Assembly: GCA_001873215.1 (NCBI GenBank)
Contig: MNYS01000006.1
Location: 56,839-120,838 of the forward strand
DNA: 64,000 nucleotides
Source of the DNA: Candidatus Levybacteria bacterium CG2_30_37_29
GTDB taxonomy: Bacteria > Patescibacteriota > Microgenomatia > Levybacterales > GWA1-39-11
Reading direction: 5' to 3'
Both the position numbers and the translations under genes were made by a program. This document shows positions 9,069-59,323 of the stretch, piece by piece. How positions within the stretch are numbered: position 1 is the first letter of the stretch; each line of letters begins with the position of its first letter. The notes beneath the pieces are model-generated. The model was not told the DNA's origin. It searched no databases and was given only the letters and a program-made list of their open reading frames with translations.

Positions 9069-9560
9069 CTAGCATACTTTGTGATTGTTCAGTAAATCTG
9101 CTAGCGCAATTCGTGCACGGTGCGGAATATCCCGAGCAGTAGGGTTTTGAACTTGTGCTGCGTGAACAACTCTCAAATGAAGAGGCATATTCGGAAGGGG
9201 AAGATAATAAGTAAAGTAATCCAACTCTTCTAATTGTTTAGCTGTTACTGTATAGAGGTGGTCAGTTCTCCGAGCTTTTCTGTCAAATAACGCTCCACAA
9301 GCAATATCGCAATTTTCGGTAAAAGTTACATGTGCAGATTTTCCCGGAGTAATAAATTCTCCTACCGGTTGTCTATCAGCATTTCTTAAGTCAAAAGAAG
9401 TGGGGATCAGTCCGTTGTTGCCCATAAAAGAAACAGAAATGTCTAGTGGGATTACTTTTCCCACAGTTAGTTTTTCGCAAACAGCAGTGTATGCCGTACG
9501 GTATTCAGCATAATATAAGGCTCGTGGTTCTCCGTCAACGCGATAATTTTCTATACTCAT
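9069..9560 (-). CDS. hypothetical protein
   Basis: 163-aa ORF. Confidence 0.45.
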   Translation of the reverse strand: MSIENYRVDGEPRALYYAEYRTAYTAVCEKLTVGKVIPLDISVSFMGNNGLIPTSFDLRNADRQPVGEFITPGKSAHVTFTENCDIACGALFDRKARRTDHLYTVTAKQLEELDYFTYYLPLPNMPLHLRVVHAAQVQNPTARDIPHRARIALADLLNNHKVC

Positions 9561-12200: not shown

Positions 12201-12521
12201 ATGATAAGTGAAACAGGGCAGTTTTTAGGAAGACGAATGCAGGAGCCGCGTCCGGTGGATTCTACAGTCGTAAAACAAGCAATCCGCGAAAATATAAGAA
12301 AGCTTGATTATTTTCCCAAAATGGAAATGATAGTGGATGATAAAGGAACAGTGGAAGACAAATGGGGAGTAGAAATCGCATGGACTAGAAGCAATCCGGA
12401 ATTAACGCATCCTGATACAGGATTTATTCTTACGTGGAACGGATTATATGAAGAAGAAGTTGCAAGATGCGATTATAATCATTCAAGTAAATTAAGTATA
12501 CACTGGATTTTAGAACGCTAG
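12201..12521 (+). CDS. hypothetical protein
   Basis: 106-aa ORF starting at the era stop. Confidence 0.45.
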   Translation: MISETGQFLGRRMQEPRPVDSTVVKQAIRENIRKLDYFPKMEMIVDDKGTVEDKWGVEIAWTRSNPELTHPDTGFILTWNGLYEEEVARCDYNHSSKLSIHWILER

Positions 12522-12628
12522 TTGAGGCGGCAGACGAAAAATACAGCATTTATGCAAGAAAAGCTATGGTGGAGATTAGCGATTTATTGTTCAAGCAACA
12601 CAATGTCAAAGCTTTTCAAATACCCCAA

Positions 12629-12690
12629 AGTTAGTTAAATGTGTTTGAGGAGGTCTGTCAAGTCTGTCAAGGTCCGTCCTTGATTAGAGG
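12629..12690. promoter_or_regulatory. tandem GTCTGTCAA GTCTGTCAA GGTCCGTCC repeats in the intergenic region
   Basis: Tandem 9-mers read directly. Positioned after era-12201 and downstream of the receiver gene on the opposite strand. Confidence 0.3.
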
Positions 12691-12780
12691 ATTTGGGTTT
12701 ATTAGTGAGCTAAACTGAAAATTAAAGGTGCGGTTCTTGCATTAAAAAGTTAACGAGTTAACGGGTTAATAGATTTGGAG

Positions 12781-13254
12781 TTATGGGGTTGGAGGTTTTT
12801 GGCTGTTACTGCGAAGGGCATTTTCTATGGTTTCTATAAATTCATTAGGTACATATGGTTTTCGTATGATTTGAAGTACTCCCATAGCCAGTAATTGAGT
12901 TGCTTCATCTTGAGTCATTCCTCCCGTCATAACGACAACAGGTACCAGAGTCTCATCCATCACTTCTTTTACGCTAGTTCTATCTTTTCTTTGAAAATCG
13001 GTAACAATTAGTTCTGGTCTGTCGTTTCTCTCCGTTTCTTCAAAATATTCAAGGAGCTCACTTCTACTATTAAAGGTAGAAACCTTCGTAAATCTGGATC
13101 TTTTTAACACTTCTTCATGTATCCTACGTAGCCCCGGGTCAAAACCTTCCACAACCCAAACTCTTTTATCAGAGACATCAATTTTTTCACTTTTTGCCGC
13201 GTTATGAGTTTCGGGTGGTGAAACTTTCTGAAATAATTCTCGTTCGTGAGTCAT
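12781..13254 (-). CDS. single-domain response-regulator receiver (CheY-like) protein
   Basis: Receiver pattern RVWVVEGFD, ELIVTDF (putative phospho-Asp), VVVMTG, IIRKPY. Confidence 0.55.
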   Translation of the reverse strand: MTHERELFQKVSPPETHNAAKSEKIDVSDKRVWVVEGFDPGLRRIHEEVLKRSRFTKVSTFNSRSELLEYFEETERNDRPELIVTDFQRKDRTSVKEVMDETLVPVVVMTGGMTQDEATQLLAMGVLQIIRKPYVPNEFIETIENALRSNSQKPPTP

Positions 13255-13338
13255 AAGTAAATATTATATAATCACTTTTGTGCGATTGCAATAAACAGAA
13301 AATATGTCCGGAACGAAGAATAAAGGAAGAATTGTGTT

Positions 13339-14688
13339 TTAGGTTTGACTATTTTTTTTGTGGCGTGCTTCCCAATCCCTGACTTGTTGAACACTAGGTG
13401 CTTTATACGTAAGTCTCTTCCCGTGCGTAGGACAGCTTGCTGCAACAAAGTGTTTATATCCTCCATTACCATCTTCAACGGTAAATTCTTTATATGAAAG
13501 TTTTGCCGGAAAACGGATATGTTCATCTTTACATTCAAAACACACATGTGCTGTGGGATGGGAAAAACCCGGTTCAAGCACAGCTTTTCTGACAGCCTCT
13601 TCTTCAATAGTTCCCATGCGAGATTTATAGGGCCCTTTGTTTTGCTCCCTTTTATATTGATGTTGTATTTGTCTTGAGGATTCGCCTTCTCCGACAAGAG
13701 CCGTGAATGAATCATGAAATGAAGATGTTCCGGTTTCATGTGCGCATTCCTTATCTCCGCAATGTTGTAAAATATCTTGACGTATATTTTTCTCTCTTCC
13801 TGAAATTCTAATTTTTGTACCACATGTAAATGTAATATCCCTGTCCAGTCCATTTAGAAGATCATATTTAAATCTTCTATAATCTTTGACCATCCGACTC
13901 AAAATTCTCGAATCATCGATTTCTTCAACATCAGGATTATCTTCCCGCAAAGCTCTGTTGCCTTCTTCCAAAAAAGCTAAATAATTTTTATGTTCATCAA
14001 TGGTTTCATCATTATCGATTTTTGCCCTACATTCTTCAACAATATCATTAGCCAATTTACCATCCTGTTCTGCTTCTTTTGGAATTCTGGCTTCCCAAAT
14101 CATTGGATTTTTGCTTGATCTTCCCGGCAGGACATTTACCTTAACAAAACCGGCCTCGACAAGCTTTTCCTTCCTTAATTCAACATTTCTGTCGTTTCCG
14201 CCTTCCTCATAACCAAATATGGCCCCGCATTTTTCCTCACCTATTCTTGCCTTATTCTTGTCTCTTTTAGGATCTTGTCTATTTAGAAGATCTCTATATA
14301 GACTAAATAGTCCTTCCGGAATTTTGTCCAGATCAATAGGGTGGTTGCTGACAAAAAAAATCGCTGCATATTTTCTTTCTCCCGGTTGATTTAGGTCAAA
14401 AAGATGTGCAATTTTCTTCAAGTTATCTCTTTCAAGGGAAGCGCCTACCGTAGGGTTACTTAAATCCACGACAAGAAATTCTCCATTTTTACCCTTGCCG
14501 GGAATTTGTTGCATAAGATGACGGGTGAAAAGCTCTTCCGGTATGTGCGGAAAAATAGTTGGGAAAAGTTCAATAGGGGAAGCGGGTCCTTTAGATTGCG
14601 GTTGTATTTCCTTTGCTGACATTCCTAAACTTTGTAGTGGTTTTTCGTCGTTCCCAAATTCTCCAATGGGCTCTCCTATTTCTGTCAT
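13339..14688 (-). CDS. hypothetical protein with C-terminal zinc-ribbon motifs
   Basis: 449 aa. HVCFECKDEH...CPTHG Cys/His cluster. Overlapping ORF 13272-13853 judged spurious. Confidence 0.55.
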   Translation of the reverse strand: MTEIGEPIGEFGNDEKPLQSLGMSAKEIQPQSKGPASPIELFPTIFPHIPEELFTRHLMQQIPGKGKNGEFLVVDLSNPTVGASLERDNLKKIAHLFDLNQPGERKYAAIFFVSNHPIDLDKIPEGLFSLYRDLLNRQDPKRDKNKARIGEEKCGAIFGYEEGGNDRNVELRKEKLVEAGFVKVNVLPGRSSKNPMIWEARIPKEAEQDGKLANDIVEECRAKIDNDETIDEHKNYLAFLEEGNRALREDNPDVEEIDDSRILSRMVKDYRRFKYDLLNGLDRDITFTCGTKIRISGREKNIRQDILQHCGDKECAHETGTSSFHDSFTALVGEGESSRQIQHQYKREQNKGPYKSRMGTIEEEAVRKAVLEPGFSHPTAHVCFECKDEHIRFPAKLSYKEFTVEDGNGGYKHFVAASCPTHGKRLTYKAPSVQQVRDWEARHKKNSQT

Positions 14689-15072
14689 AGTGAATATATT
14701 TTACCATAGCATGGATAGAGAGTGGTTGTTTTTTTCTTGCGTCTTTTAAAAAAGACGCCCAAAACTTCTTGTGAATGAAGCCGGACTATTTTTGTTCGTT
14801 CACTTGTCGGGTGATTTCACCCCTTCCTCGATCCTTCGGACGAGGAATCCCCCTGACGCGTTCACTCACAAAAACTTTACGTCCTAATGCTTCAATCGCA
14901 AGGAGAAAATATGCTGTGAAATGGTGAATTTTTGCAAGATTTTTCCAAGAAAAAACCGCCCTTTGGCAAAACCCGTGTGACGTTGAGGTCACAGGAAATC
15001 GTTTGGGGCGGTTTTTCAACCAAGGGTCACGGTGACATGAGCTTCTCCTTGCGAAGAGTGGTGGTGCCAGAG

Positions 15073-15399
15073 CTAGTCAGGAACGCCAAGACAGAGCTTG
15101 AAGTCCATTCTGGTTATTTCGAGCCTGATCCGCTCTGCGAGTTGTCGTAGATAGAACTGGTCGAGGTCAGTCGTCAGCACGACGGCGTATTCGAAAGGAC
15201 CTGCGACGGTCGTAGTCACTTCGGCGGTTTTTCCCATCATCGCACGGATTTCGTGTGCGACGGTGTTAGCCGTTCCCTTCGTGACTTCGAAGATGGCGTA
15301 TCCTCTCACCAAAGATCTCTTCGATCGGGCTTCGAGCTTCTGTGGAAGACTTCGTCGGTCCACCCGGTGTACACGAGGATTACCTCGTTTCGAATCCAT
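15073..15399 (-). CDS. small protein resembling the Lrp/AsnC C-terminal (RAM/ACT-like) domain, inside the high-GC island
   Basis: GYAIFEVTKGTANTVAHEIRAMMGKTAEVTTTVAGPFEYAVVLTTDLDQF follows a beta-alpha-beta-beta-alpha-beta pattern. GC-rich codon usage unlike its neighbours. Confidence 0.4.
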   Translation of the reverse strand: MDSKRGNPRVHRVDRRSLPQKLEARSKRSLVRGYAIFEVTKGTANTVAHEIRAMMGKTAEVTTTVAGPFEYAVVLTTDLDQFYLRQLAERIRLEITRMDFKLCLGVPD

Positions 15400-15421
15400 C
15401 TGGCGAGCCTTTTGATGCTCT

Positions 15422-15721
15422 TCATTTTAACTTCCGAACGGGCTCGGTCCATCGCTCGATACAATTTCGCGCGGCTTTGTCTTCATCGCGTGCGAAATCA
15501 AGATCTGCGAGGATCTGGTTGACGGTGGCGTGATCGCCCGATGCGTCCGCGAGCACAGATGCTTCTCGTAGCTTGTACTCGAGATCGGCAACGTTCTGTC
15601 GCGCTTCGGCAAGAGCTGTGAGAGCCGAGTAGGCTTCCTCCATTGCGAATGCTACCTGTAGCATCATTCGGGATATACCTCTCCTAGTGTTCGATTGACC
15701 TGACGGATGTCTGTCCGGCAA
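15422..15721 (-). CDS. hypothetical Ala/Arg-rich protein (island)
   Basis: 99-aa helical ORF in the high-GC segment. Overlapping ORFs occur on both strands, so frame choice is uncertain. Confidence 0.3.
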   Translation of the reverse strand: MPDRHPSGQSNTRRGISRMMLQVAFAMEEAYSALTALAEARQNVADLEYKLREASVLADASGDHATVNQILADLDFARDEDKAARNCIERWTEPVRKLK

Positions 15722-16263
15722 GCTTGTCTATGAAGCTCTGAATCCTGGTGTCATCACCTGTTAGAGTAATGGTTGCCACCGTAGGACCAAAGCTTTTTCT
15801 CTGGATTCTAACCCCATCCGGGATGTGTTTGTTGACCCAGCTTGCCACGCGGGTTTGGACGAAGGAGGTGTAATGCACCTTGACTTTCGTTGTCTTGGTA
15901 AACACCTTTCCTCCTACTTGCCGCTGCCGAATGTTTGGCTGTTACCGATCTTAACGCCGTTTGGCTTGCGCCTTGGTTTTGTCGGCGGTTCGACCTTGAC
16001 TCCAGGGATTCCTGGTTTTGTCGTTCGTACGAACCTTGATGGATTATTTGCCACGGAATTGTCCCTCTCCTGCCCGTTTGCTATGTGGGATCTGCGTAGA
16101 AGCGAGATGTGACTGCCGGTTGAGAGAAGGTACACCTCCCCCAAGTGCACTTAACAAAGAGCGTCTTACCATTTTGGAGCTGGACGATCGTGTTAAGCCT
16201 CTTGCACTTTGGGCAAATGGTTTTTTTCCTTTTATCTCTCTTGGCCACCGTGTTTCCCTCCAT

Positions 16264-16497
16264 TCAGACGGTAAGCGTAAGGATCCGTTCGACGGCAAGC
16301 ATGATGCTGCCGATGAAGCTTAAAGCTGCTCCCGCAATAAACGTTATAGCGAGATTCTCGATGACCCAAGGCTCCCAAGAAGGAGATCCTCGAATTGAGA
16401 CGAATCGTTTCAACGAATAAAAAGTAAGAGCTGTAAGTCCCACAAAAGCTCCTCCAATCGTTGAACCCCAAAGTCCCAATATGAATACGACGTGCAC
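16264..16497 (-). CDS. small two-TM membrane protein (island)
   Basis: 77 aa with two hydrophobic helices. Confidence 0.35.
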   Translation of the reverse strand: MHVVFILGLWGSTIGGAFVGLTALTFYSLKRFVSIRGSPSWEPWVIENLAITFIAGAALSFIGSIMLAVERILTLTV

Positions 16498-16507
16498 GAG
16501 TCCCTCC

Positions 16508-16897
16508 CTAATGGTGGTTTTTGTGATAGTGTCCGAGAGTGAGCAGTCCGATGAAGACGGTTCCGATGACGACGCCGGTTATGGCCCGATAGTCAGTGTG
16601 TACTCCATTTTTGTAGGCGTTGTCGATGAGGACAGCGCCGCACAGAAGTGTTAGTACGATAATGGTTCCAAGCCTGTCAAAATAATCCAAGTCTCCCTCC
16701 CTGCGGGGTTGAAAGGTGGTCGTTGACGAGATGCATTGGCTTCCCTTGCCAATCTGACTGTTGATGAATTCATGTCTAAAACACGCGGATTCGCAAATAT
16801 GCAAATTGTCATCTGCTGTCCACGCGTGTGTGACCCAAGTTGTCAAAGAACAAAGCCAAATCCCAAAGCAGGGAAGTGGTCTTGCAAATTGACACAA
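16508..16897 (-). CDS. small membrane protein (island), start uncertain
   Basis: C-terminal half has two TM helices and a His-rich tail. N-terminal part is doubtful. Confidence 0.3.
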   Translation of the reverse strand: MCQFARPLPCFGIWLCSLTTWVTHAWTADDNLHICESACFRHEFINSQIGKGSQCISSTTTFQPRREGDLDYFDRLGTIIVLTLLCGAVLIDNAYKNGVHTDYRAITGVVIGTVFIGLLTLGHYHKNHH

Positions 16898-17162
16898 TCC
16901 CTAAAGACGGATTTGGCGATATAGATGCGATTATAGCACTTTATTAACAAGGAATCAAAAAGACTATAAGATTGTATTTGAGGCTATTGGATCCCAGCTT
17001 CGAACATTATATAGCCTATAGATATTTACTATACACACCCGAGTTCAAGTATCTTTAATAGCTCATAGTGATTTATTACATTTGCAGAGGCTTATAGAGG
17101 TTAGTTGTGTTAAGTAAATCTATCCTCTTGTCAAAACAATCAATGAACGATACTATAAATAT

Positions 17163-18041
17163 ATGTCGGATTATAAATTCGTTAACATTCCGAGTCTTGA
17201 GAATTGGGTGATACTCGCGCCAAAGCGCTCAAAAAGACCGGATATTCATGAAAAGAAAAAAAAGCTTTGCCCGTTTTGTGTGGGTAACGAGAAAAAAGAT
17301 CCTGACGTTTATAGAATAGGAGGCGAGGGGTTGGATCAAAACTGGTCTGTACGCGTCGTAAAAAATAAATATCCGTTTGCTCCTATTCACGAAGTAATTA
17401 TTCATTCCCCACAGCACATAGAGCACTTGACAGATCTTCCTCTTTCCCAGATACAGCTTGTTATTGAGGCATTTGTTAATAGATTCAACGCTCACATAAA
17501 AGAAGGAACCGTAATTATTTTTGGGAATTCGGGACATGATGCAGGGGAAAGTATCGGTCACACGCATTCACAGCTTGCAGTTGTTCCAAGGGATGTGCCC
17601 GTTGTCGTACCGCGACTTGAGGAAATTCTTGATTATACAGGAGAGCATTTTATGGTAAAAGACTTCAAGCTTATTTGTCCGCCTTATTCTCAGTGGCCTG
17701 ATGAAGTTTGGATAATACCTACGGCTCGCGGAAAAATTTTTAGTGAAATCACTTTTGAAGAGATAGAAAGTCTTTCTTATGTGCTAAAACATCTGCTTCG
17801 TATTCTTGCTGCACGTCACGGCCACGAATTCCCGTATAACTTTTACATTTACCCTTATCGTGACTGGTACTTGCGAATTATGCCGCGTGCAAAAATCGCC
17901 GGTGGATTTGAGATGGCAACGGGGATTTTCGTAAATACGCAGGATCCGCGTGACACAATGAAATTTATAAAACAGCACTTTTTTGAGGAAGACGAAGAGA
18001 AAATTAAGATAAACAAAGCGGAGTATAGAAAAGGAGTGTAG
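17163..18041 (+). CDS. GalT-like HIT-superfamily nucleotidyltransferase (galactose-1-phosphate uridylyltransferase family)
   Basis: CPFC zinc motif near the N-terminus and H-T-H-S-Q (HxHxQ) active-site motif. Confidence 0.6.
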   Translation: MSDYKFVNIPSLENWVILAPKRSKRPDIHEKKKKLCPFCVGNEKKDPDVYRIGGEGLDQNWSVRVVKNKYPFAPIHEVIIHSPQHIEHLTDLPLSQIQLVIEAFVNRFNAHIKEGTVIIFGNSGHDAGESIGHTHSQLAVVPRDVPVVVPRLEEILDYTGEHFMVKDFKLICPPYSQWPDEVWIIPTARGKIFSEITFEEIESLSYVLKHLLRILAARHGHEFPYNFYIYPYRDWYLRIMPRAKIAGGFEMATGIFVNTQDPRDTMKFIKQHFFEEDEEKIKINKAEYRKGV

Positions 18042-21862: not shown

Positions 21863-22756
21863 ATGACTAAAATTAGAAAGGCTGTAATACCTGCGGCGGG
21901 CTTTGGAACCCGTTTTCTTCCTCAAACAAAAGCAATGCCCAAAGAAATGCTTCCGATAGTTGATAAACCAATTGTACAGTATATTGTTGAAGAGCTTGTT
22001 AATGCGGGAATTGAAGACATAATTATCGTTACGGGTTCTCACAAAAGGACAATTGAAGACCATTTTGACAGTCCATCTATGGAATTGGTAGAAAACCTTC
22101 GTATGGGTGGAGAAAAGAAGATGAAATTTTTGGAAGAAGCAGAAAGAATTGCTTCTATGGCCAATTTTATTTACGTCAGGCAAAAAGGCCCATATGGTAA
22201 TGGAACGCCATTATTAAACGTAAAGTCACTTATTGGCAATGAACCCTTTATTTATACTTGGAGCGATGACTTTATAAAAGCTCGTCCTAAATCACGTTTT
22301 CAACAGATGATTGAAGTTTATGAGAAGTATGGATGTTCGGTTTTGGCTTCTGTTAAGGCAAAAAGTGATGAGGATTATGATCGGTATGGTTTTGCAGGAG
22401 GGGAAGAAATTGAAGACGGACTTATTGATGCAAAAACCATTATTGAAAAGCCGGGGAAGCAAAATGCCCCTTCAGACCTTGCAACGGTCAGTGGATTTAT
22501 CTTTACTCCTGACATCTTTCAATATCTTGATGGTGCGCTCAATAATCTTCGTGAAGGGGACGAACTTTATTATAACGATGCATTGAAATTAATGCTGAAC
22601 GATAAAAAAAGAGTTTTGGCGTATGAAATAAAGGGTGGGAAATACTACGATACGGGTAATAAGTTGGAGTATATGAAAACTGTTGTTGAGTTGGCGTTGG
22701 AGCATCCGGACGTAAAAGAAGAATTCAAAAAATTTCTAAAAGACCTGAATCTATAG
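21863..22756 (+). CDS. galU: UTP--glucose-1-phosphate uridylyltransferase
   Basis: N-terminal AVIPAAGFGTRFLP.TKA.PKEMLPIVDKP is the GalU signature. Confidence 0.85.
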   Translation: MTKIRKAVIPAAGFGTRFLPQTKAMPKEMLPIVDKPIVQYIVEELVNAGIEDIIIVTGSHKRTIEDHFDSPSMELVENLRMGGEKKMKFLEEAERIASMANFIYVRQKGPYGNGTPLLNVKSLIGNEPFIYTWSDDFIKARPKSRFQQMIEVYEKYGCSVLASVKAKSDEDYDRYGFAGGEEIEDGLIDAKTIIEKPGKQNAPSDLATVSGFIFTPDIFQYLDGALNNLREGDELYYNDALKLMLNDKKRVLAYEIKGGKYYDTGNKLEYMKTVVELALEHPDVKEEFKKFLKDLNL

Positions 22757-23584
22757 TTCTTTCCCAAGATACTCTTTTGGCGCTATTTTAGCTTGTTCAG
22801 AAAATACAGCTTCTTCAATATTTTGCAAATTTCTTTGCCTCCATTTATCTCTTGTTTCATTTTCTTTTATATCAATTTTTGCTCTGTTTAATAATTCATT
22901 AAGCGTTATCGTTTCACCGTGAATTACTTTATATTTCTTAAACAACTTAAGACCTCTTACTTTTTTGTCGCCATAATTTTCAAGACCATTTATTTCAAAC
23001 GCGACAAAATGAATCCACGAATCCTCAATCGATACTCCGCGGTCATAAAGTCCTTTGATAAGACGCGTTACAACGCCATCTTTATCAAGTGTTAATTTTG
23101 GTTTTCTTGTTGCGTTTGATGCGACAACAACAATTCCACCGTCTCTAACGGTTGGCGCCGCCTCATCTAAATATTGAAGAGTTCCCTCACCGCGTTTCAA
23201 ATCATTTTCTCCTTTTTTGTCTGCGCGATATTTTGATTCAGGAGTGACGACCTTAATTGCTTTTACGCCAATAGATTTTGCAAACGGCAAAAGACCAAAA
23301 AATGCCTGATGTTTTGCAATTGGCGCTGTAATTTTTACACTTTTTGCTTGATTTTTTGTGATGCTGTCAATTGCCCAAAGAGGATCCGAAGTACTAAAAT
23401 GCATCTCAACAACTATTCCGCCTTTTCCCTGCCCTACATATTCGCAAAGTTTTTCAAGGCCACCAAAATCATCTACAGATCCTTCCGTTCTAAGAAGAGG
23501 ATGCCGCAATATTCCCCGCGCCGCTTCTCTCCAAACAACCTGCAAGGGATTTATTCCGGCAGATCTTTCTTGGGATTCTTTCAT
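22751..23584 (-). CDS. putative acyltransferase-like protein (HX4D motif)
   Basis: EMHFSTSD contains an H-x4-D motif typical of glycerolipid acyltransferases. Otherwise unassigned. Confidence 0.4.
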   Translation of the reverse strand: MKESQERSAGINPLQVVWREAARGILRHPLLRTEGSVDDFGGLEKLCEYVGQGKGGIVVEMHFSTSDPLWAIDSITKNQAKSVKITAPIAKHQAFFGLLPFAKSIGVKAIKVVTPESKYRADKKGENDLKRGEGTLQYLDEAAPTVRDGGIVVVASNATRKPKLTLDKDGVVTRLIKGLYDRGVSIEDSWIHFVAFEINGLENYGDKKVRGLKLFKKYKVIHGETITLNELLNRAKIDIKENETRDKWRQRNLQNIEEAVFSEQAKIAPKEYLGKEL

Positions 23585-57678: not shown

Positions 57679-58299
57679 ATGAGTGAGCTAGGTGAAGGAC
57701 CGTCTACAAATAATACAACCATAGAAACAGTACGTGCAATTCCCGAAAGCAGAAATCAAATAATTACCAAAAGAGAAGAAATCCCAACATTAGTAGAGTT
57801 GCCTTTAGTCGAAGCATGTGAAAATTTGTATGACAGAAATATTCAGACACTTTCTTCTTCCGCAAATTCTAATGATATAAATCCTGAAAATCCCGATAAC
57901 AGTTTTGCAAATATTATTATTGATTACAATTCATTATCCGGGGAAAATAAAAAAATTGTTGAAATTTTAATAAAAGATGGGAAAGCTGACATGATTGGCA
58001 ATTATGACAATAGAGCTGTAGTTCGTCTGCGTTTTCCATTAGCAAGAGGCACACAGGTAAAAGAATTGCAAGAAGTCTCGGTTTGGATTTCGGAGCAATT
58101 TAGAAAACAGCCAATGACATGGGCTCCAACGATGAATGTCGATGATGTTGCTAAAATGTATATGTCAGAAGAAGTAAAAGATGTGGATCCGCAAAAACTT
58201 GCTGAAGAAATTGGATATTATTATTCACCTGAAGAAAAACTTTTCTATCTAAGCGAAGAACATTATAAAAAAGTTAAAGACGGTTTGGTTACTGGATGA
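57679..58299 (+). CDS. hypothetical protein
   Basis: 206-aa acidic ORF. Confidence 0.5.
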   Translation: MSELGEGPSTNNTTIETVRAIPESRNQIITKREEIPTLVELPLVEACENLYDRNIQTLSSSANSNDINPENPDNSFANIIIDYNSLSGENKKIVEILIKDGKADMIGNYDNRAVVRLRFPLARGTQVKELQEVSVWISEQFRKQPMTWAPTMNVDDVAKMYMSEEVKDVDPQKLAEEIGYYYSPEEKLFYLSEEHYKKVKDGLVTG

Positions 58300-59323
58300 T
58301 GTCGCTTAGGGATTCCCCGACATATATCCGTTTTATCGCTTCGGCAAGAAGAGGGGCAATAGAAATTACTTGAATTTTAGGATACTTTTTTGCTTTAGGA
58401 TTAAGCTTGATAGAATCCGTAACAAAAACCGTATTTATCTTTGATGCATTAATTCTTTCAATTGCGGGATTTGAAAAAAGGCCATGAGTGGCCGCAACCG
58501 AAACACTTTTTGCACCCCGCTCTATAAGCATATCCGTAGCATTCACTATTGTTCCTGCAGTGTCTATCATGTCATCAACGAGAAGAACCTCTTTTCCTTC
58601 CACGTCTCCTATCATGCCTAGAGCTTCCGATTTATTTGCAACATCAACGTCTCGTTGTTTGAAAACCATTGCCACTCCTTGCGACTGCAGCCTTTTCGCG
58701 TAAGCAGTGGCTCTTGTCATGCCGCCCTTATCAGGAGAAGCAACCACAAGATTATCGTTTGAAAAATGGTTTTTTAAAACAGGAAGCACAGCAATGCTGG
58801 CATGCAGATTATCCCATGGAATATTTACAAATCCTTCCTCGGGTTCCGAGTGAAGGTCTAAAGTAACAATTCTGTCCGCGCCGGCTGCTTCAATTTCACG
58901 GGCAACAAGAGCTGCAGAAATCGGTACTCTTGACCTGTCTTTTCTGTCTTGTCTCGCATAACCAAAATATGGAACTATTGCCGTTATTTCACTTGCCGAT
59001 GACCTTCTTGCCGCATCAAGCATGAATTTTAATTCTGCCAGATTATTATTTACCGGAGGAGAAGAAGGTTGGACAACGAATACATCACGCCTTCTGATGT
59101 TATCGGGAATTCTAATTCGTGTTTCTCCATCTGCAAATCGACCGGCAGTTTCCTGAATTTTGGTTTTCAATATTCTTCCAACTTGACGGGCAAGATCTTT
59201 ATTTCCGTTTCCTGTAATAATTGAAAAATCAGGGGTGAATAAAACTGTTTCGGGGTAAGGGTATCTTCCTGTGTCAAGAAGATTATATGGTCTTGTTCCA
59301 AGATCTCGTTCTGCTCCTGCCAT
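58289..59323 (-). CDS. prs: ribose-phosphate pyrophosphokinase
   Basis: PRPP-binding loop VLLVDDMIDTAGT, flexible loop, N-terminal domain DLHS. Confidence 0.85.
   Translation of the reverse strand: MAGAERDLGTRPYNLLDTGRYPYPETVLFTPDFSIITGNGNKDLARQVGRILKTKIQETAGRFADGETRIRIPDNIRRRDVFVVQPSSPPVNNNLAELKFMLDAARRSSASEITAIVPYFGYARQDRKDRSRVPISAALVAREIEAAGADRIVTLDLHSEPEEGFVNIPWDNLHASIAVLPVLKNHFSNDNLVVASPDKGGMTRATAYAKRLQSQGVAMVFKQRDVDVANKSEALGMIGDVEGKEVLLVDDMIDTAGTIVNATDMLIERGAKSVSVAATHGLFSNPAIERINASKINTVFVTDSIKLNPKAKKYPKIQVISIAPLLAEAIKRIYVGESLSDIIQ

What the first reader, a model, noticed from the sequence alone, without database searches (positions are those of the whole stretch)
14740..17150. ~2.3-kb compositional island (~55% GC versus ~37% background) with small Arg/Ala-rich and membrane ORFs
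Directly visible: GC content jumps sharply between roughly 14.78 and 16.93 kb. Sixty-base samples give 55-57% GC, and the flanks return to AT-rich sequence. Inside it, the six-frame track shows ORFs on both strands, as expected for high-GC DNA. The most protein-like ones are on the minus strand: a 108-aa ORF with an Lrp/AsnC C-terminal (RAM)-like pattern, a 99-aa Ala/Arg-rich helical ORF, and two small two-TM proteins. A perfect hairpin GCGTCTTTTAAAAAAGACGC (14739-14758) sits at the left boundary. Inference: this is horizontally acquired DNA from a high-GC donor (host bacterium, plasmid or phage remnant) or a chimeric assembly join. Either way it is not native to this genome and its genes are uncharacterised.
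Basis: seen in the sequence. Interest (0 to 1): 0.7.

Follow-up and report, generated by a model that had tools for sequence, protein, structure and literature searches.

The report
Foreign small-gene operon in a Levybacteria genome
The GC-rich patch is a real 2-kb operon of eight tiny genes with no known relatives, almost certainly acquired from outside by an AT-rich groundwater Levybacteria (CPR) bacterium; it is not an assembly error, its last gene is swapped between strains, and its function is unknown.

Summary
The compositional island is real: 50.5% GC over 14800-16900 against 36.9 +/- 1.5% for the rest of the window (z = 8.8). It is not a chimera. The same sequence and the same junctions occur in more than 20 independent assemblies of Ca. 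Levybacteria CG2_30_37_29.

It is one minus-strand transcription unit. A host-type promoter (16958-16930) is followed by a ~230-nt leader, eight tightly packed or overlapping small genes (g1-g8, 39-81 aa) and an intrinsic terminator (15016-14951). Third-position and synonymous substitution patterns against two diverged copies show the genes are coding.

The expression signals look foreign. The island uses GGAGG Shine-Dalgarno sites, mostly GTG starts, and has GC3 of 0.57. Host genes have GC3 of 0.29, almost no Shine-Dalgarno sites, and often look leaderless. Sixteen related species lack the island. No profile library, phage or plasmid collection matches any gene.

The last gene, g8, has a ferredoxin-like fold that cannot be placed in the RAM family. 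It is a sharply bounded allelic cassette: 27-29% identity between alleles, with identical flanks.

Function is unknown. My best guess is a conflict or exclusion cassette.

Verdict: horizontally acquired ORFan islet; moderately interesting.

The parts
16930..16958 (-). Promoter-like site: TTGATT, 17-nt spacer, TGcTATAAT (extended -10). Predicted transcription start is near 16922.
   Evidence: The consensus scan scores it 10/12 with a TG motif. Both hexamers are conserved in the diverged copy L040. The same TGCTATAAT-type -10 is common in front of host genes.
16691..16922 (-). ~230-nt 5' leader with conserved blocks, the hairpin ATTGGC-AAGGGAA-GCCAAT, and two copies of TGCAAATTG(T/A)CA at 16800 and 16883. 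It is either a cis-regulatory RNA or operator region, or less likely an N-terminal extension of g1.
   Evidence: It is 77% identical in nucleotides to L040, which is more conserved than the coding parts at 67-68%. The RNA fold z-score is -2.5. With only two sequences, covariation is uninformative. L041 loses homology upstream of CAGTCAGATTGG. The repeat is.
16508..16690 (-). g1: 60 aa, TTG start after GGGAGGGAG, two TM segments, His-rich C-terminus.
   Evidence: It is 92% identical in amino acids in L041, with substitutions concentrated at the third codon position. L040 has an analogous 56-aa two-TM ORF.
16264..16497 (-). g2: 77 aa, GTG start after the sequence TAG-GGAGGGA, two TM segments.
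   Evidence: Amino-acid identity is 55% in L040 and 91% in L041.
16081..16248 (-). g3: 55 aa (or 60 aa if it starts at ATG 16263). Very basic (+11) zinc-ribbon protein with CPKC-x18-C-x4-C.
   Evidence: Amino-acid identity is 61% in L040, where the ORF starts at the equivalent MAKRDKRK. The Pfam Zn_ribbon_16 match is sub-threshold only.
15914..16054 (-). g4: 46 aa, basic (+9), Pro/Lys-rich and probably disordered. GTG start after GGAGAGGGA.
   Evidence: It is 87% identical in L041, with 9 of 14 changed codons synonymous. The resemblance in L040 is weak.
15684..15905 (-). g5: 73 aa, basic (+6), ferredoxin-like beta-alpha-beta-beta-alpha-beta domain (ACT / NikR-C / RAM-like).
   Evidence: AF2 pLDDT is 85.7. 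Foldseek gives only generic matches, with E >= 2e-3 and TM up to 0.77. The word-index search of the 5.8-billion-protein collection returned only its own cluster. It is present in L041 and absent from L040.
15422..15667 (-). g6: 81 aa, acidic, helical protein. The first ~35 codons are conserved; the remainder is divergent in L041.
   Evidence: Amino-acid identity is 44% to L040, where it is fused to a g7-like tail as a 127-aa ORF.
15306..15425 (-). g7: 39 aa. Its start overlaps the g6 stop (ATGA). It carries the conserved motif YTGWTDEVF...RRDLW.
15073..15309 (-). g8: 78 aa. Its start overlaps the g7 stop (GTGA). Ferredoxin-like fold. This is the hypervariable allelic cassette.
   Evidence: AF2 pLDDT is 83.5. 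L021 has 100% identical flanks, but this ORF alone is replaced by an allele with 27-29% amino-acid identity. In L022 and L039 every difference falls in codon 40 onward plus ~20 nt downstream, and many are synonymous. Only 3 genuine hit clusters were found among 1.84 billion representatives.
15027..15054 (-). Strong SD (AAGGAGAA) followed by a 3-codon mini-ORF, ATG-TCA-CCG-TGA, just before the terminator. It overlaps the palindrome GTCA-NNN-TGAC.
   Evidence: The sequence is. It is conserved in L040 as AAGGAGAACGTCATGTCAACGTGA. Its function is unknown.
14951..15016 (.). Intrinsic, formally bidirectional terminator hairpin: AAAAACCGCCC ... GGGCGGTTTTT(T).
   Evidence: (I6). The stem and T-run are conserved in L040 while the apical part differs. 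Homology with L040 ends ~10 nt beyond the T-run.
14760..14950 (.). Spacer of moderately raised GC (~0.44) containing a UUCG-type hairpin at about 14826-14845. It is not shared with L040 and probably not part of the operon.
14739..14758 (.). It lies upstream of the 449-aa host gene and outside the transcription unit.
   Evidence: No T-run follows it on either strand. No significant direct or inverted repeat pairs the two island edges.

Best explanation
The island is a genuine accessory operon of foreign origin, a 2-kb 'genomic islet', in the chromosome of Candidatus Levybacteria bacterium CG2_30_37_29 (Patescibacteria/CPR).

Shown:
- It is one leftward transcription unit. A host-type extended -10 promoter (16958-16930) is followed by a ~230-nt conserved leader, eight very small genes, and a conserved intrinsic terminator (15016-14951).
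- The genes are chained by TAG-GGAGG-N5-9-GTG junctions or by ATGA/GTGA overlaps.
- The genes are under purifying selection in these frames.
- Their base composition and translation signals (Shine-Dalgarno-led, mostly GTG starts) differ from the host's. Host genes are AT-rich, start with ATG, have almost no Shine-Dalgarno sites and often look leaderless.
- Different copies exchange segments by homologous recombination. The 3' module (g6 C-terminal part, g7, g8) is mosaic. g8 alone is replaced, ORF for ORF, between otherwise identical genomes of one population.

Inferred:
- The DNA entered this lineage from a GC-richer gene pool and is slowly drifting toward host composition.
- The products are two membrane hairpins (g1, g2), three strongly basic proteins that are probably nucleic-acid-binding (zinc-ribbon g3, disordered g4, ferredoxin-like g5), and a fast-diversifying cytosolic trio (g6-g8).
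- The most likely function, at roughly 30% within this explanation, is an inter-genomic conflict cassette: defence, exclusion or addiction. In that model the variable ferredoxin-like g8 is the specificity or sensor component and the small membrane proteins are the effectors.
For: - Composition: (z = 8.8). Island GC1/2/3 is 0.52/0.43/0.57, against 0.48/0.36/0.29 for host ORFs.
- Not a chimera: the identical segment and junctions occur in more than 20 contigs from ENA, JGI, NCBI and Logan assemblies.
- Operon anatomy: SD and start sites, promoter and terminator, both conserved in L040.
- Coding status: window against L041 has 48 third-position substitutions, against 19 first-position and 18 second-position. 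41 changed codons are synonymous in the annotated frames, more than in either shifted frame. AF2 models are confident.
- Foreign signals: SD in 6 of 8 island genes against 1 of 56 host ORFs. 23 of 56 host ORFs have a TATAAT-like box ending 5-13 nt before the start, against 7% at random positions, and none of the island genes do.
- Patchy distribution: no homologue of g1-g8 in 16 related species that share the neighbouring gene.
- ORFan status.
- Recombination and cassette behaviour.
- AT-ward skew of the window copy relative to L041: 58 against 31.
- A second GC-richer islet of 1.29 kb, flanked by a 41-nt direct repeat of the 3' end of the GalT-like gene, is present in only some strains. This shows that such insertions happen at this locus.
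- Genomic islands are common in groundwater Patescibacteria (PMC12455944).
Against: - No donor, mobility gene, tRNA target or flanking repeat was found for this island.
- A diverged lineage (L040; GalT-like protein 72.5% identical) has the homologous operon near the same gene. Its nucleotide divergence (67-77%) is similar to that of the host gene (71%), and its GC3 is even higher (0.61-0.74). After that much time a passively inherited foreign segment should have lost its GC signature. Acquisition may therefore be repeated, or GC may be actively maintained.
- The AT-ward skew is unpolarised because no usable outgroup exists.
- The functional guess has no homology support. PADLOC and PHROGs gave nothing. 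The ferredoxin-like fold is generic.
- All comparative evidence rests on three lineages, two of them short contigs.
Confidence: 0.65

Rival explanations
1. The operon is native and vertically inherited in this small Levybacteria clade. Its high GC is actively maintained, either by selection (for example on stability or structure of an SD-dependent polycistronic mRNA) or by GC-biased gene conversion at a recombination hot spot. On this view it is not a leftover of a foreign donor.
For: A homologous operon sits near the same GalT-like gene in L040. Its divergence is like the host gene's, and GC3 is still ~0.3 above the flanks in both lineages. The promoter is of host type. There is direct evidence of frequent recombination in the locus. 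No mobility signature was found.
Against: The island is absent from 16 related species. The SD and GTG usage is alien to the host. Non-coding parts are also GC-raised, at 0.47. The window copy is AT-shifted relative to L041, 58 against 31, as expected for decay rather than maintenance. Known gBGC effects in bacteria are much smaller than +0.3 in GC3 (established knowledge, not tested here). The contexts on the far side of the island differ between lineages.
Confidence: 0.2
2. The island is a remnant or cargo module of a temperate phage, satellite or integrative element. An example would be a lysis, exclusion or regulatory cassette with holin-like two-TM proteins and small DNA-binding proteins, left behind without its integrase.
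For: The genes are tiny, tightly coupled and SD-led, and evolve as a mosaic, all typical of phage modules. There are two small two-TM proteins and basic zinc-ribbon and other small proteins. A neighbouring polymorphic 1.29-kb islet has att-like 41-nt direct repeats.
Against: There are no PHROG matches, no blastn match to 50,697 phage or 72,556 plasmid records, no relatives in IMG/VR by protein or DNA pattern, and no significant BFVD fold match. There is no integrase, endolysin, capsid or replication gene within +/-10 kb. No att repeats flank this island.
Confidence: 0.15
3. The 3' half (g6-g7-g8) is a polymorphic toxin/immunity or toxin-antitoxin type addiction module. It would have a conserved N-terminal part, a sharply divergent C-terminal 'warhead', and co-varying small downstream protector genes.
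For: Identity between window and L041 drops abruptly after ~105 nt of g6 and stays low through g7 and g8. g6 and g7 are fused in L040. g8 alleles are exchanged by recombination at short conserved motifs.
Against: No toxin, immunity, TA or defence profile matches. g6 has no secretion signal or carrier domain. In L021, g8 is swapped alone while g6 and g7 stay identical, which would break a cognate toxin-immunity pair.
Confidence: 0.1
4. The GC-rich stretch is a large structured non-coding RNA, and the small ORFs are artefacts of GC-rich sequence.
For: Structured RNAs are typically GC-richer than AT-rich genomes. Gene callers disagree on ORFs here. The leader and 3' region fold better than shuffles, with z = -2.5 and -3.1.
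Against: There is no Rfam match even at E <= 10. Third-position and synonymous substitution bias holds in every annotated frame. Regular SD-start spacing precedes each ORF. Protein-level conservation at 40-60% persists where DNA is only 67% identical. AF2 folds are confident for g5 and g8.
Confidence: 0.03
5. The island is a chimeric assembly join that placed DNA of a GC-richer organism into a Levybacteria contig.
For: There is an abrupt compositional change. One MAG (GCA_002773275.1) has N-gaps near the left end.
Against: The identical 2,461-bp segment, including both junctions, occurs in more than 20 contigs from different samples and assemblers, up to 252 kb long. The N-gaps coincide with the strain-variable g8 region, which explains them. 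A diverged homologue lies near the same gene in another lineage.
Confidence: 0.01

Closest known systems
Horizontally acquired genomic islands or islets of Patescibacteria (as surveyed in groundwater MAGs, PMC12455944)
   Same: It is a compositionally deviant block of accessory, mostly hypothetical genes in a streamlined CPR genome. It is patchily distributed and lies in a strain-variable neighbourhood.
   Different: It is only ~2 kb and has no integrase, transposase, tRNA target or direct repeats. All eight genes are ORFans. Its translation signals differ in kind from the host's. A homologous copy in a diverged lineage keeps the GC anomaly.
Stand-alone RAM / ACT-like small ligand-binding domains (Lrp/AsnC C-terminal domain, PF01037; NikR C-domain; ACT)
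   Same: g5 and g8 are ~75-aa beta-alpha-beta-beta-alpha-beta domains of the right size. The top fold matches include NikR-C, ACT, PII-like and Lrp/AsnC-family structures.
   Different: There is no significant sequence or profile match. PF01037 is reached only at E = 0.058 by 2 of 10 family members, and not by the window protein. The Foldseek E-values (>= 1e-3) are those of a generic ferredoxin-like fold. There is no ligand-site evidence and no partner HTH domain.
Polymorphic toxin-immunity loci (for example the CdiA-CT/CdiI and Rhs-CT/RhsI architecture)
   Same: There is a sharp switch from conserved to highly divergent sequence inside a gene (g6), followed by divergent small downstream genes. 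Alleles are exchanged by recombination within a population.
   Different: There is no recognisable toxin, immunity, delivery or secretion component. The proteins are tiny. g8 can be swapped without its upstream partners.
Phage lysis or superinfection-exclusion cassettes with class II (two-TM) holins
   Same: There are two adjacent 60-77-aa two-TM proteins in a tightly coupled, SD-led, mosaic small-gene operon.
   Different: There is no endolysin, spanin or any phage gene nearby. There is no PHROG, IMG/VR or BFVD support.
Integron gene cassettes
   Same: There is ORF-sized replacement of g8 between otherwise identical genomes, and a palindromic element lies downstream of the ORF.
   Different: There is no IntI integrase. 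The downstream palindrome is shared by the different alleles and is a terminator, not a cassette-specific attC. The breakpoints are short homologies consistent with ordinary homologous recombination.

Membership tests
Lrp/AsnC ligand-binding (RAM) domain, PF01037 | Significant match to the family profile | tested here: not met
   There is no PF01037 hit for the 108-aa or 78-aa protein at E <= 1. Only 2 of 10 g8-family members reach E = 0.058, below threshold. The PDB profile search finds an Lrp-like chain at E = 1.1.
Lrp/AsnC ligand-binding (RAM) domain, PF01037 | beta-alpha-beta-beta-alpha-beta fold of ~75 residues | tested here: met
   The AF2 model has pLDDT 83.5 with element order E-H-E-E-H-E. 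The fold is shared with ACT, NikR-C, PII and S6, so it is not discriminating.
Horizontally acquired genomic island | Base composition and codon usage deviating from the genome | tested here: met
   GC is 50.5% against 36.9% (z = 8.8). GC3 is 0.57 against 0.29. Tetranucleotide distance peaks over the island.
Horizontally acquired genomic island | Sporadic phylogenetic distribution | tested here: met
   The island is absent from 16 related species that share the GalT-like neighbour. It is present in only three lineages found anywhere.
Horizontally acquired genomic island | Mobility signature: integrase or transposase, tRNA or gene-3'-end target, flanking direct repeats | tested here: not met
   There are no such genes within +/-10 kb. 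The nearest tRNA is 5 kb away. Edge-to-edge alignment is no better than shuffles. The neighbouring polymorphic 1.29-kb islet does have 41-nt direct repeats.
Horizontally acquired genomic island | Identifiable donor lineage or closer homologues elsewhere | tested here: not met
   No homologues exist outside the three Levybacteria-type loci.
Known anti-phage defence systems (PADLOC-DB v2) | Profile match of at least one component | tested here: not met
   There are no matches below E = 0.01 for any of g1-g8 or the alternative g8 allele.
Prophage or phage-derived module | Matches to phage protein families or phage genomes | tested here: not met
   PHROGs gives nothing below E = 0.01. INPHARED blastn finds none. 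IMG/VR scans find none. BFVD fold search gives E >= 3.6e-3.
Class II holin | Small protein with two TM segments, encoded beside an endolysin | tested here: inconclusive
   g1 and g2 each have two TM-like segments. No endolysin-like gene is present and there is no family match.
Integron gene cassette | IntI integrase and a cassette-specific attC at the cassette boundary | tested here: not met
   There is no integrase in the window neighbourhood. The downstream palindrome is identical between alleles A and C.
Polymorphic toxin / immunity locus | Conserved N-terminal region with an abrupt junction to a variable C-terminus, plus a variable downstream gene | tested here: met
   Window against L041 has 2 mismatches in the first ~105 nt of g6 and ~50% identity from there through g7 and g8.
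Polymorphic toxin / immunity locus | Recognisable toxin domain, and co-inheritance of toxin and immunity alleles | tested here: not met
   There are no toxin or immunity profiles. L021 carries a foreign g8 with unchanged g6 and g7.
Rfam structured RNA families | Covariance-model match | tested here: not met
   There is no hit in 14600-17200 even at E <= 10, apart from a meaningless SCARNA8 match at E = 6.

The most novel reading that the evidence does not exclude
The operon is a previously unknown type of conflict system specific to CPR bacteria. It would be a defence, superinfection-exclusion or addiction system. Its parts would be small membrane effectors (g1, g2), small basic nucleic-acid binders (g3-g5), and an exchangeable ferredoxin-like specificity subunit (g8) kept polymorphic by frequency-dependent selection. 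Its GC-rich, Shine-Dalgarno-dependent design would be maintained, not merely inherited, in a host that otherwise translates mainly leaderless mRNAs. That design could, for example, couple its expression to a particular ribosomal or physiological state.
Probability: 0.15. Interest if true: 0.7.

Novelty: new member of a known kind. Interest (0 to 1): 0.38.

Why it matters
CPR/Patescibacteria genomes are tiny, mostly uncultured and full of unannotated genes. This case is well documented. A foreign 2-kb operon is fixed in a natural population. Its expression signals follow rules different from the host's. One of its genes is being swapped between co-existing strains.

If the conflict-system reading is right, it adds a new family of very small proteins to the defence and exclusion repertoire of episymbiotic bacteria. 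It would also offer a natural system for asking two questions: how Shine-Dalgarno-led genes are expressed in a largely leaderless host, and how long a compositional signature can persist.

If the reading is wrong, this is simply one more ORFan genomic islet. Its value is then mainly as a caution that such GC spikes in MAGs need not be misassemblies.

Tried and rejected
1. One concatenated 676-aa pseudo-protein of all ORFs was sent to the search for homologous proteins.
2. Rfam at gathering and at E <= 10 gave no RNA family. The large-ncRNA idea was dropped after the codon-position tests.
3. blastn (distant mode) against the phage and plasmid collections found no match.
4. Pfam, PHROGs, PADLOC, NCBIfam and PDB sequence searches of all ORFs and of family profiles gave only sub-threshold noise.
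5. IMG/VR scans with g5, g6 and two conserved DNA blocks found nothing.
6. The single metagenome scan, using the g7/g8 junction 27-mer, found only one contig, carrying allele B. Allele diversity therefore could not be enumerated that way.
7. The search for att-like direct or inverted repeats between the island edges found nothing better than shuffled sequence. The 10-nt word TCAAAAAGAC recurs but also occurs elsewhere.
8. The 12-nt inverted repeat 14896-14907 / 15043-15054, which would close a 160-nt structure around the terminator, is not conserved in L040. It was not pursued.
9. Leader RNA covariation could not be assessed with only two alignable sequences. An ORF reading through the leader in frame with g1 has a compensated frameshift in L040 and is missing from L041, so it was not adopted.
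10. g5 and g8 were tested as possible paralogues. hhalign gave probability 0.2, so this was rejected.
11. The GC-rich patch next to the GalT-like gene in L038 turned out to be a Cys/Gly-rich 371-aa ORF and is unrelated.
12. The apparent deletion of the response-regulator region in L018 is just a run of N.
13. The afdb50 fold library was unavailable.

Full report
OBSERVATION

The window is AT-rich: 1-kb bins run at 0.31-0.41 GC. The exceptions are 15001-16000 (0.532) and 16001-17000 (0.472). At 200-nt resolution GC stays between 0.46 and 0.55 from about 14900 to 16900 and falls to 0.31-0.34 by 17000. Over 14800-16900 the mean is 50.5%. Background 2.1-kb windows average 36.9% (sd 1.5, maximum 40.4), so z = 8.8. 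A two-state likelihood segmentation puts the core at 14956-16750 (51.8%). The tetranucleotide distance to the rest of the window peaks at the same place.

'55%' describes the peaks rather than the mean. No rRNA, tRNA or other Rfam family lies in the island, even at E <= 10.

NOT AN ASSEMBLY ARTEFACT

The exact 108-aa and 81-aa products and the neighbouring 292-aa protein are found on dozens of contigs. The sources are ENA, JGI, NCBI (GCA_002793055.1, GCA_002773275.1) and Logan assemblies of Crystal Geyser groundwater samples, made with different assemblers and up to 252 kb long. The 2,461-bp segment 14700-17160, including both junctions, is 99.9-100% identical in 16 of these loci and in the overlapping part of four more. 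NCBI names the organism Candidatus Levybacteria bacterium CG2_30_37_29 and calls all these proteins hypothetical.

ANATOMY

All coding sense is on the minus strand. A sigma-70-type site, TTGATT-17-TGcTATAAT, lies at 16958-16930. About 230 nt of leader follow, and then eight ORFs. Their starts were fixed from ribosome-binding sites, from the overlaps and from the diverged copies.

| Gene | Coordinates | Length | Start |
|---|---|---|---|
| g1 | 16690-16508 | 60 aa | TTG |
| g2 | 16497-16264 | 77 aa | GTG |
| g3 | 16248-16081 | 55 aa | GTG |
| g4 | 16054-15914 | 46 aa | GTG |
| g5 | 15905-15684 | 73 aa | GTG |
| g6 | 15667-15422 | 81 aa | ATG |
| g7 | 15425-15306 | 39 aa | ATG, overlapping the g6 stop (ATGA) |
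| g8 | 15309-15073 | 78 aa | GTG, overlapping the g7 stop (GTGA) |

Five junctions have the form stop codon, then GGAGG-type motif, then start. A conserved strong SD with a three-codon mini-ORF follows g8 (15054-15027). The unit ends in a long hairpin with a T-run (15016-14951).

THE ORFS ARE GENES

Two diverged copies were found through the one full HMMER search and exact look-ups.

L041 is a 1.8-kb contig. It is ~92% identical in DNA across g1-g5. Its substitutions fall 19/18/48 on codon positions 1/2/3 of the annotated frames. 41 changed codons are synonymous, more than in either shifted frame for every gene.

L040 is a 6-kb contig whose GalT/HIT-like neighbour is 72.5% identical in protein. 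It has the operon at 40-61% protein identity for g2, g3, g6 and g8, where DNA identity is only 67-68%.

Within the Crystal Geyser population, a third g8 allele differs at 17 sites, about half of them synonymous third positions. AlphaFold2 models of g8 (pLDDT 83.5) and g5 (85.7, from a single sequence) are confident beta-alpha-beta-beta-alpha-beta domains. This rules out the 'large structured RNA' reading for the body of the island.

WHAT THE PROTEINS LOOK LIKE

- g1 and g2 each have two hydrophobic helices.
- g3 (+11) is a zinc ribbon (CPKC...C-x4-C).
- g4 (+9) is Pro/Lys-rich.
- g5 (+6) and g8 are ferredoxin-like.
- g6 is an acidic helical protein.
- g7 is a 39-aa basic peptide with a conserved YTGWTDEVF...RRDLW motif.
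- In L040, g6 carries a g7-like tail in one 127-aa ORF.

None of the eight proteins matches Pfam, PHROGs, PADLOC, NCBIfam or PDB sequences at a meaningful level. Fold searches of g5 and g8 return only generic ferredoxin-like neighbours at E >= 1e-3: NikR C-domain, ACT, PII-like, S6 and Lrp/AsnC-family structures. PF01037 is reached at E = 0.058 by only two of ten family members. g5 and g8 are not detectably related to each other.

A profile of the g8 alleles, searched against 1.84 billion representative proteins, finds only three genuine clusters. All belong to this kind of locus. By word-index search, g5 has no relative other than itself.

FOREIGN SIGNATURE

Island genes have GC1/2/3 of 0.52/0.43/0.57, against 0.48/0.36/0.29 for the window's long ORFs. 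The leader and the 3' region are also raised, at 0.47.

The translation signals differ in kind, which is more telling. Six of eight island genes have a GGAGG-type site and the other two are overlap-coupled. Five start with GTG and one with TTG. Among 56 non-overlapping host ORFs of at least 150 aa, one has any GGAG/GAGG/AGGA upstream and 45 start with ATG. Twenty-three carry a TATAAT-like box ending 5-13 nt (mode 6) before the start codon, against 7% at random positions. That is the signature of leaderless mRNAs. The island's own promoter, by contrast, is of the host's TGnTATAAT type.

Sixteen related species (Levybacteria and other Patescibacteria; GalT-like protein 38-54% identical) have no homologue of g1-g8 and no comparable GC rise beside that gene. 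There is no match in phage, plasmid or IMG/VR collections.

Genomic islands are known to be frequent in groundwater Patescibacteria (PMC12455944).

In some strains of the same population, a different 1.29-kb islet of two ORFan genes (48% GC, GC3 0.50-0.66) is inserted at the 3' end of the GalT-like gene. It sits between 41-nt imperfect direct repeats of that gene's end. Insertion of GC-richer DNA at this locus is therefore an ongoing process.

COMPLICATION

The operon is not a very recent arrival, or it has arrived more than once. In L040 it lies near the same gene, although 1.7 kb of other genes intervene and the far flank differs. Its DNA divergence (67-77%) resembles that of the host gene (71%). 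Its GC3 (0.61-0.74) is again ~0.3 above its flanks. Promoter, leader blocks, mini-ORF and terminator are conserved.

A passively inherited foreign segment should have ameliorated over that distance. This leaves two possibilities: repeated acquisition from a GC-rich pool, or a local force maintaining GC. One piece of evidence favours decay in the window's lineage. Among window-L041 differences, the window has A/T where L041 has G/C 58 times, and the reverse 31 times. The GC ranking is L040 > L041 > window. The comparison is unpolarised, so I keep the 'maintained GC' rival at 0.2. No att-like repeat, integrase or tRNA target was found for this island.

RECOMBINATION AND THE g8 CASSETTE

L021 comes from another Crystal Geyser sample. 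It is 100% identical to the window on both sides, but the g8 ORF alone (15306-15074) is replaced by a 247-bp sequence encoding a protein 27-29% identical. That allele is ~88% identical in DNA to the g8 of L041. The breakpoints are the shared GAGATCTYTGGTGA at the g7/g8 overlap and the first bases after the stop.

A third allele (L022, L039, L020) is a mosaic that diverges from codon 40 to ~20 nt past the stop. The N-gaps in MAG GCA_002773275.1 fall exactly there.

Between window and L041, identity drops abruptly ~105 nt into g6 and stays low through g7 and g8. The 3' module is therefore shuffled by homologous recombination among diverged copies, and at least three g8 alleles coexist in one population.

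MECHANISM

Shown: this is an SD-dependent, translationally coupled operon of eight small proteins, driven by a host-type promoter with a long conserved leader and closed by an intrinsic terminator. It is foreign in composition and signals, and its terminal gene is recombinationally exchanged.

Inferred: the DNA was acquired from a GC-richer pool and has partly ameliorated.

Guessed (about 0.3 given the main explanation): it is a conflict cassette. The arguments for this are the membrane hairpins, which could act as effectors; the basic small proteins, which could bind nucleic acid; the intracellular component that is kept polymorphic; and the accessory distribution in a variable neighbourhood. 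A toxin-immunity reading of g6-g8 is weakened because g8 is swapped without g6 and g7. A prophage-remnant reading has no positive homology support. A regulatory or transport role for ACT/RAM-like domains with small membrane proteins cannot be excluded.

VERDICT

The donor is unidentified. This is a new, ORFan member of a known kind: a genomic islet in a CPR genome. It has three features worth noting: SD-led genes in a largely leaderless host, a GC anomaly that persists in a diverged lineage, and an ORF-exact hypervariable terminal gene. Interest is moderate, at 0.38.

Noticed in passing
whole window (for example 901-1638, 9069-9560, 13339-14688, 17163-18041, 22751-23584, 58289-59323): Host genes look predominantly leaderless. 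23 of 56 ORFs of at least 150 aa have a TATAAT-like box (>= 5/6 match) ending 5-13 nt, most often 6 nt, before the start codon, against 7% at random positions. Only 1 of 56 has a Shine-Dalgarno 4-mer.
   Followed up: partly
L020:4847-6135 and L016 (inserted after window 18044, at the 3' end of the GalT/HIT-like gene): A strain-polymorphic 1.29-kb insertion is absent from the window. It has 48% GC and two ORFan genes of 97 and 148 aa (GC3 0.50 and 0.66). It is flanked by a 41-nt imperfect (83%) direct repeat of the gene's 3' end, which is att-like. It shares no homology with the main island.
   Followed up: partly
window 15027-15054 (minus strand); L040:4757-4780: A strong SD plus a three-codon mini-ORF (ATG-TCA-CCG-TGA, or ATG-TCA-ACG-TGA in L040) sits between g8 and the terminator in both lineages. 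It overlaps a GTCA-NNN-TGAC palindrome. GTGAC/GTCAC words recur in the terminator loop and in the leader.
   Followed up: no
L040:1313-1971: The diverged lineage has a second GC3-rich module (0.61-0.76) of three small ORFs (58-aa two-TM, 36 aa, 100 aa) between the GalT-like gene and an h106-like gene. The 58-aa ORF has a weak T4SS_pilin hit at E = 0.0085.
   Followed up: no
window 12201-14688: Three genes to the left of the island have host-like composition (GC3 0.28 for the 449-aa gene): a 106-aa ORF coupled to era, a stand-alone 157-aa receiver-domain protein, and a 449-aa Cys-motif ORFan. All three are missing from the 16 relatives' loci. In L040 the 106-aa homologue sits on the other side of the island, so the neighbourhood is rearrangement-prone.
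   Followed up: partly
L020:1665-1801 and 1921-2000 (corresponding to window ~14843-15195): MAG GCA_002773275.1 has runs of N exactly over the strain-variable g8 and terminator region. This illustrates how population heterogeneity breaks assemblies at this spot.
   Followed up: yes
L038:11832-12947: Another Patescibacteria MAG has a 60-67% GC patch next to its GalT-like gene. It is a 371-aa, extremely Cys/Gly-rich ORF (compositional bias from amino-acid content) and is unrelated to this island.
   Followed up: yes
window 16800-16811 and 16883-16894: Two exact copies of TGCAAATTG(T/A)CA lie 83 nt apart in the operon leader. The only other near-match in 64 kb has one mismatch. They may be an operator, but this is not statistically compelling.
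   Followed up: partly
window 14826-14845: A GC-rich hairpin (CCTCGATCC-TTCG-GACGAGG type) lies in the spacer between the island terminator and the 449-aa gene's upstream region. It is not shared with L040. One MAG's N-gap starts right after it.
   Followed up: no
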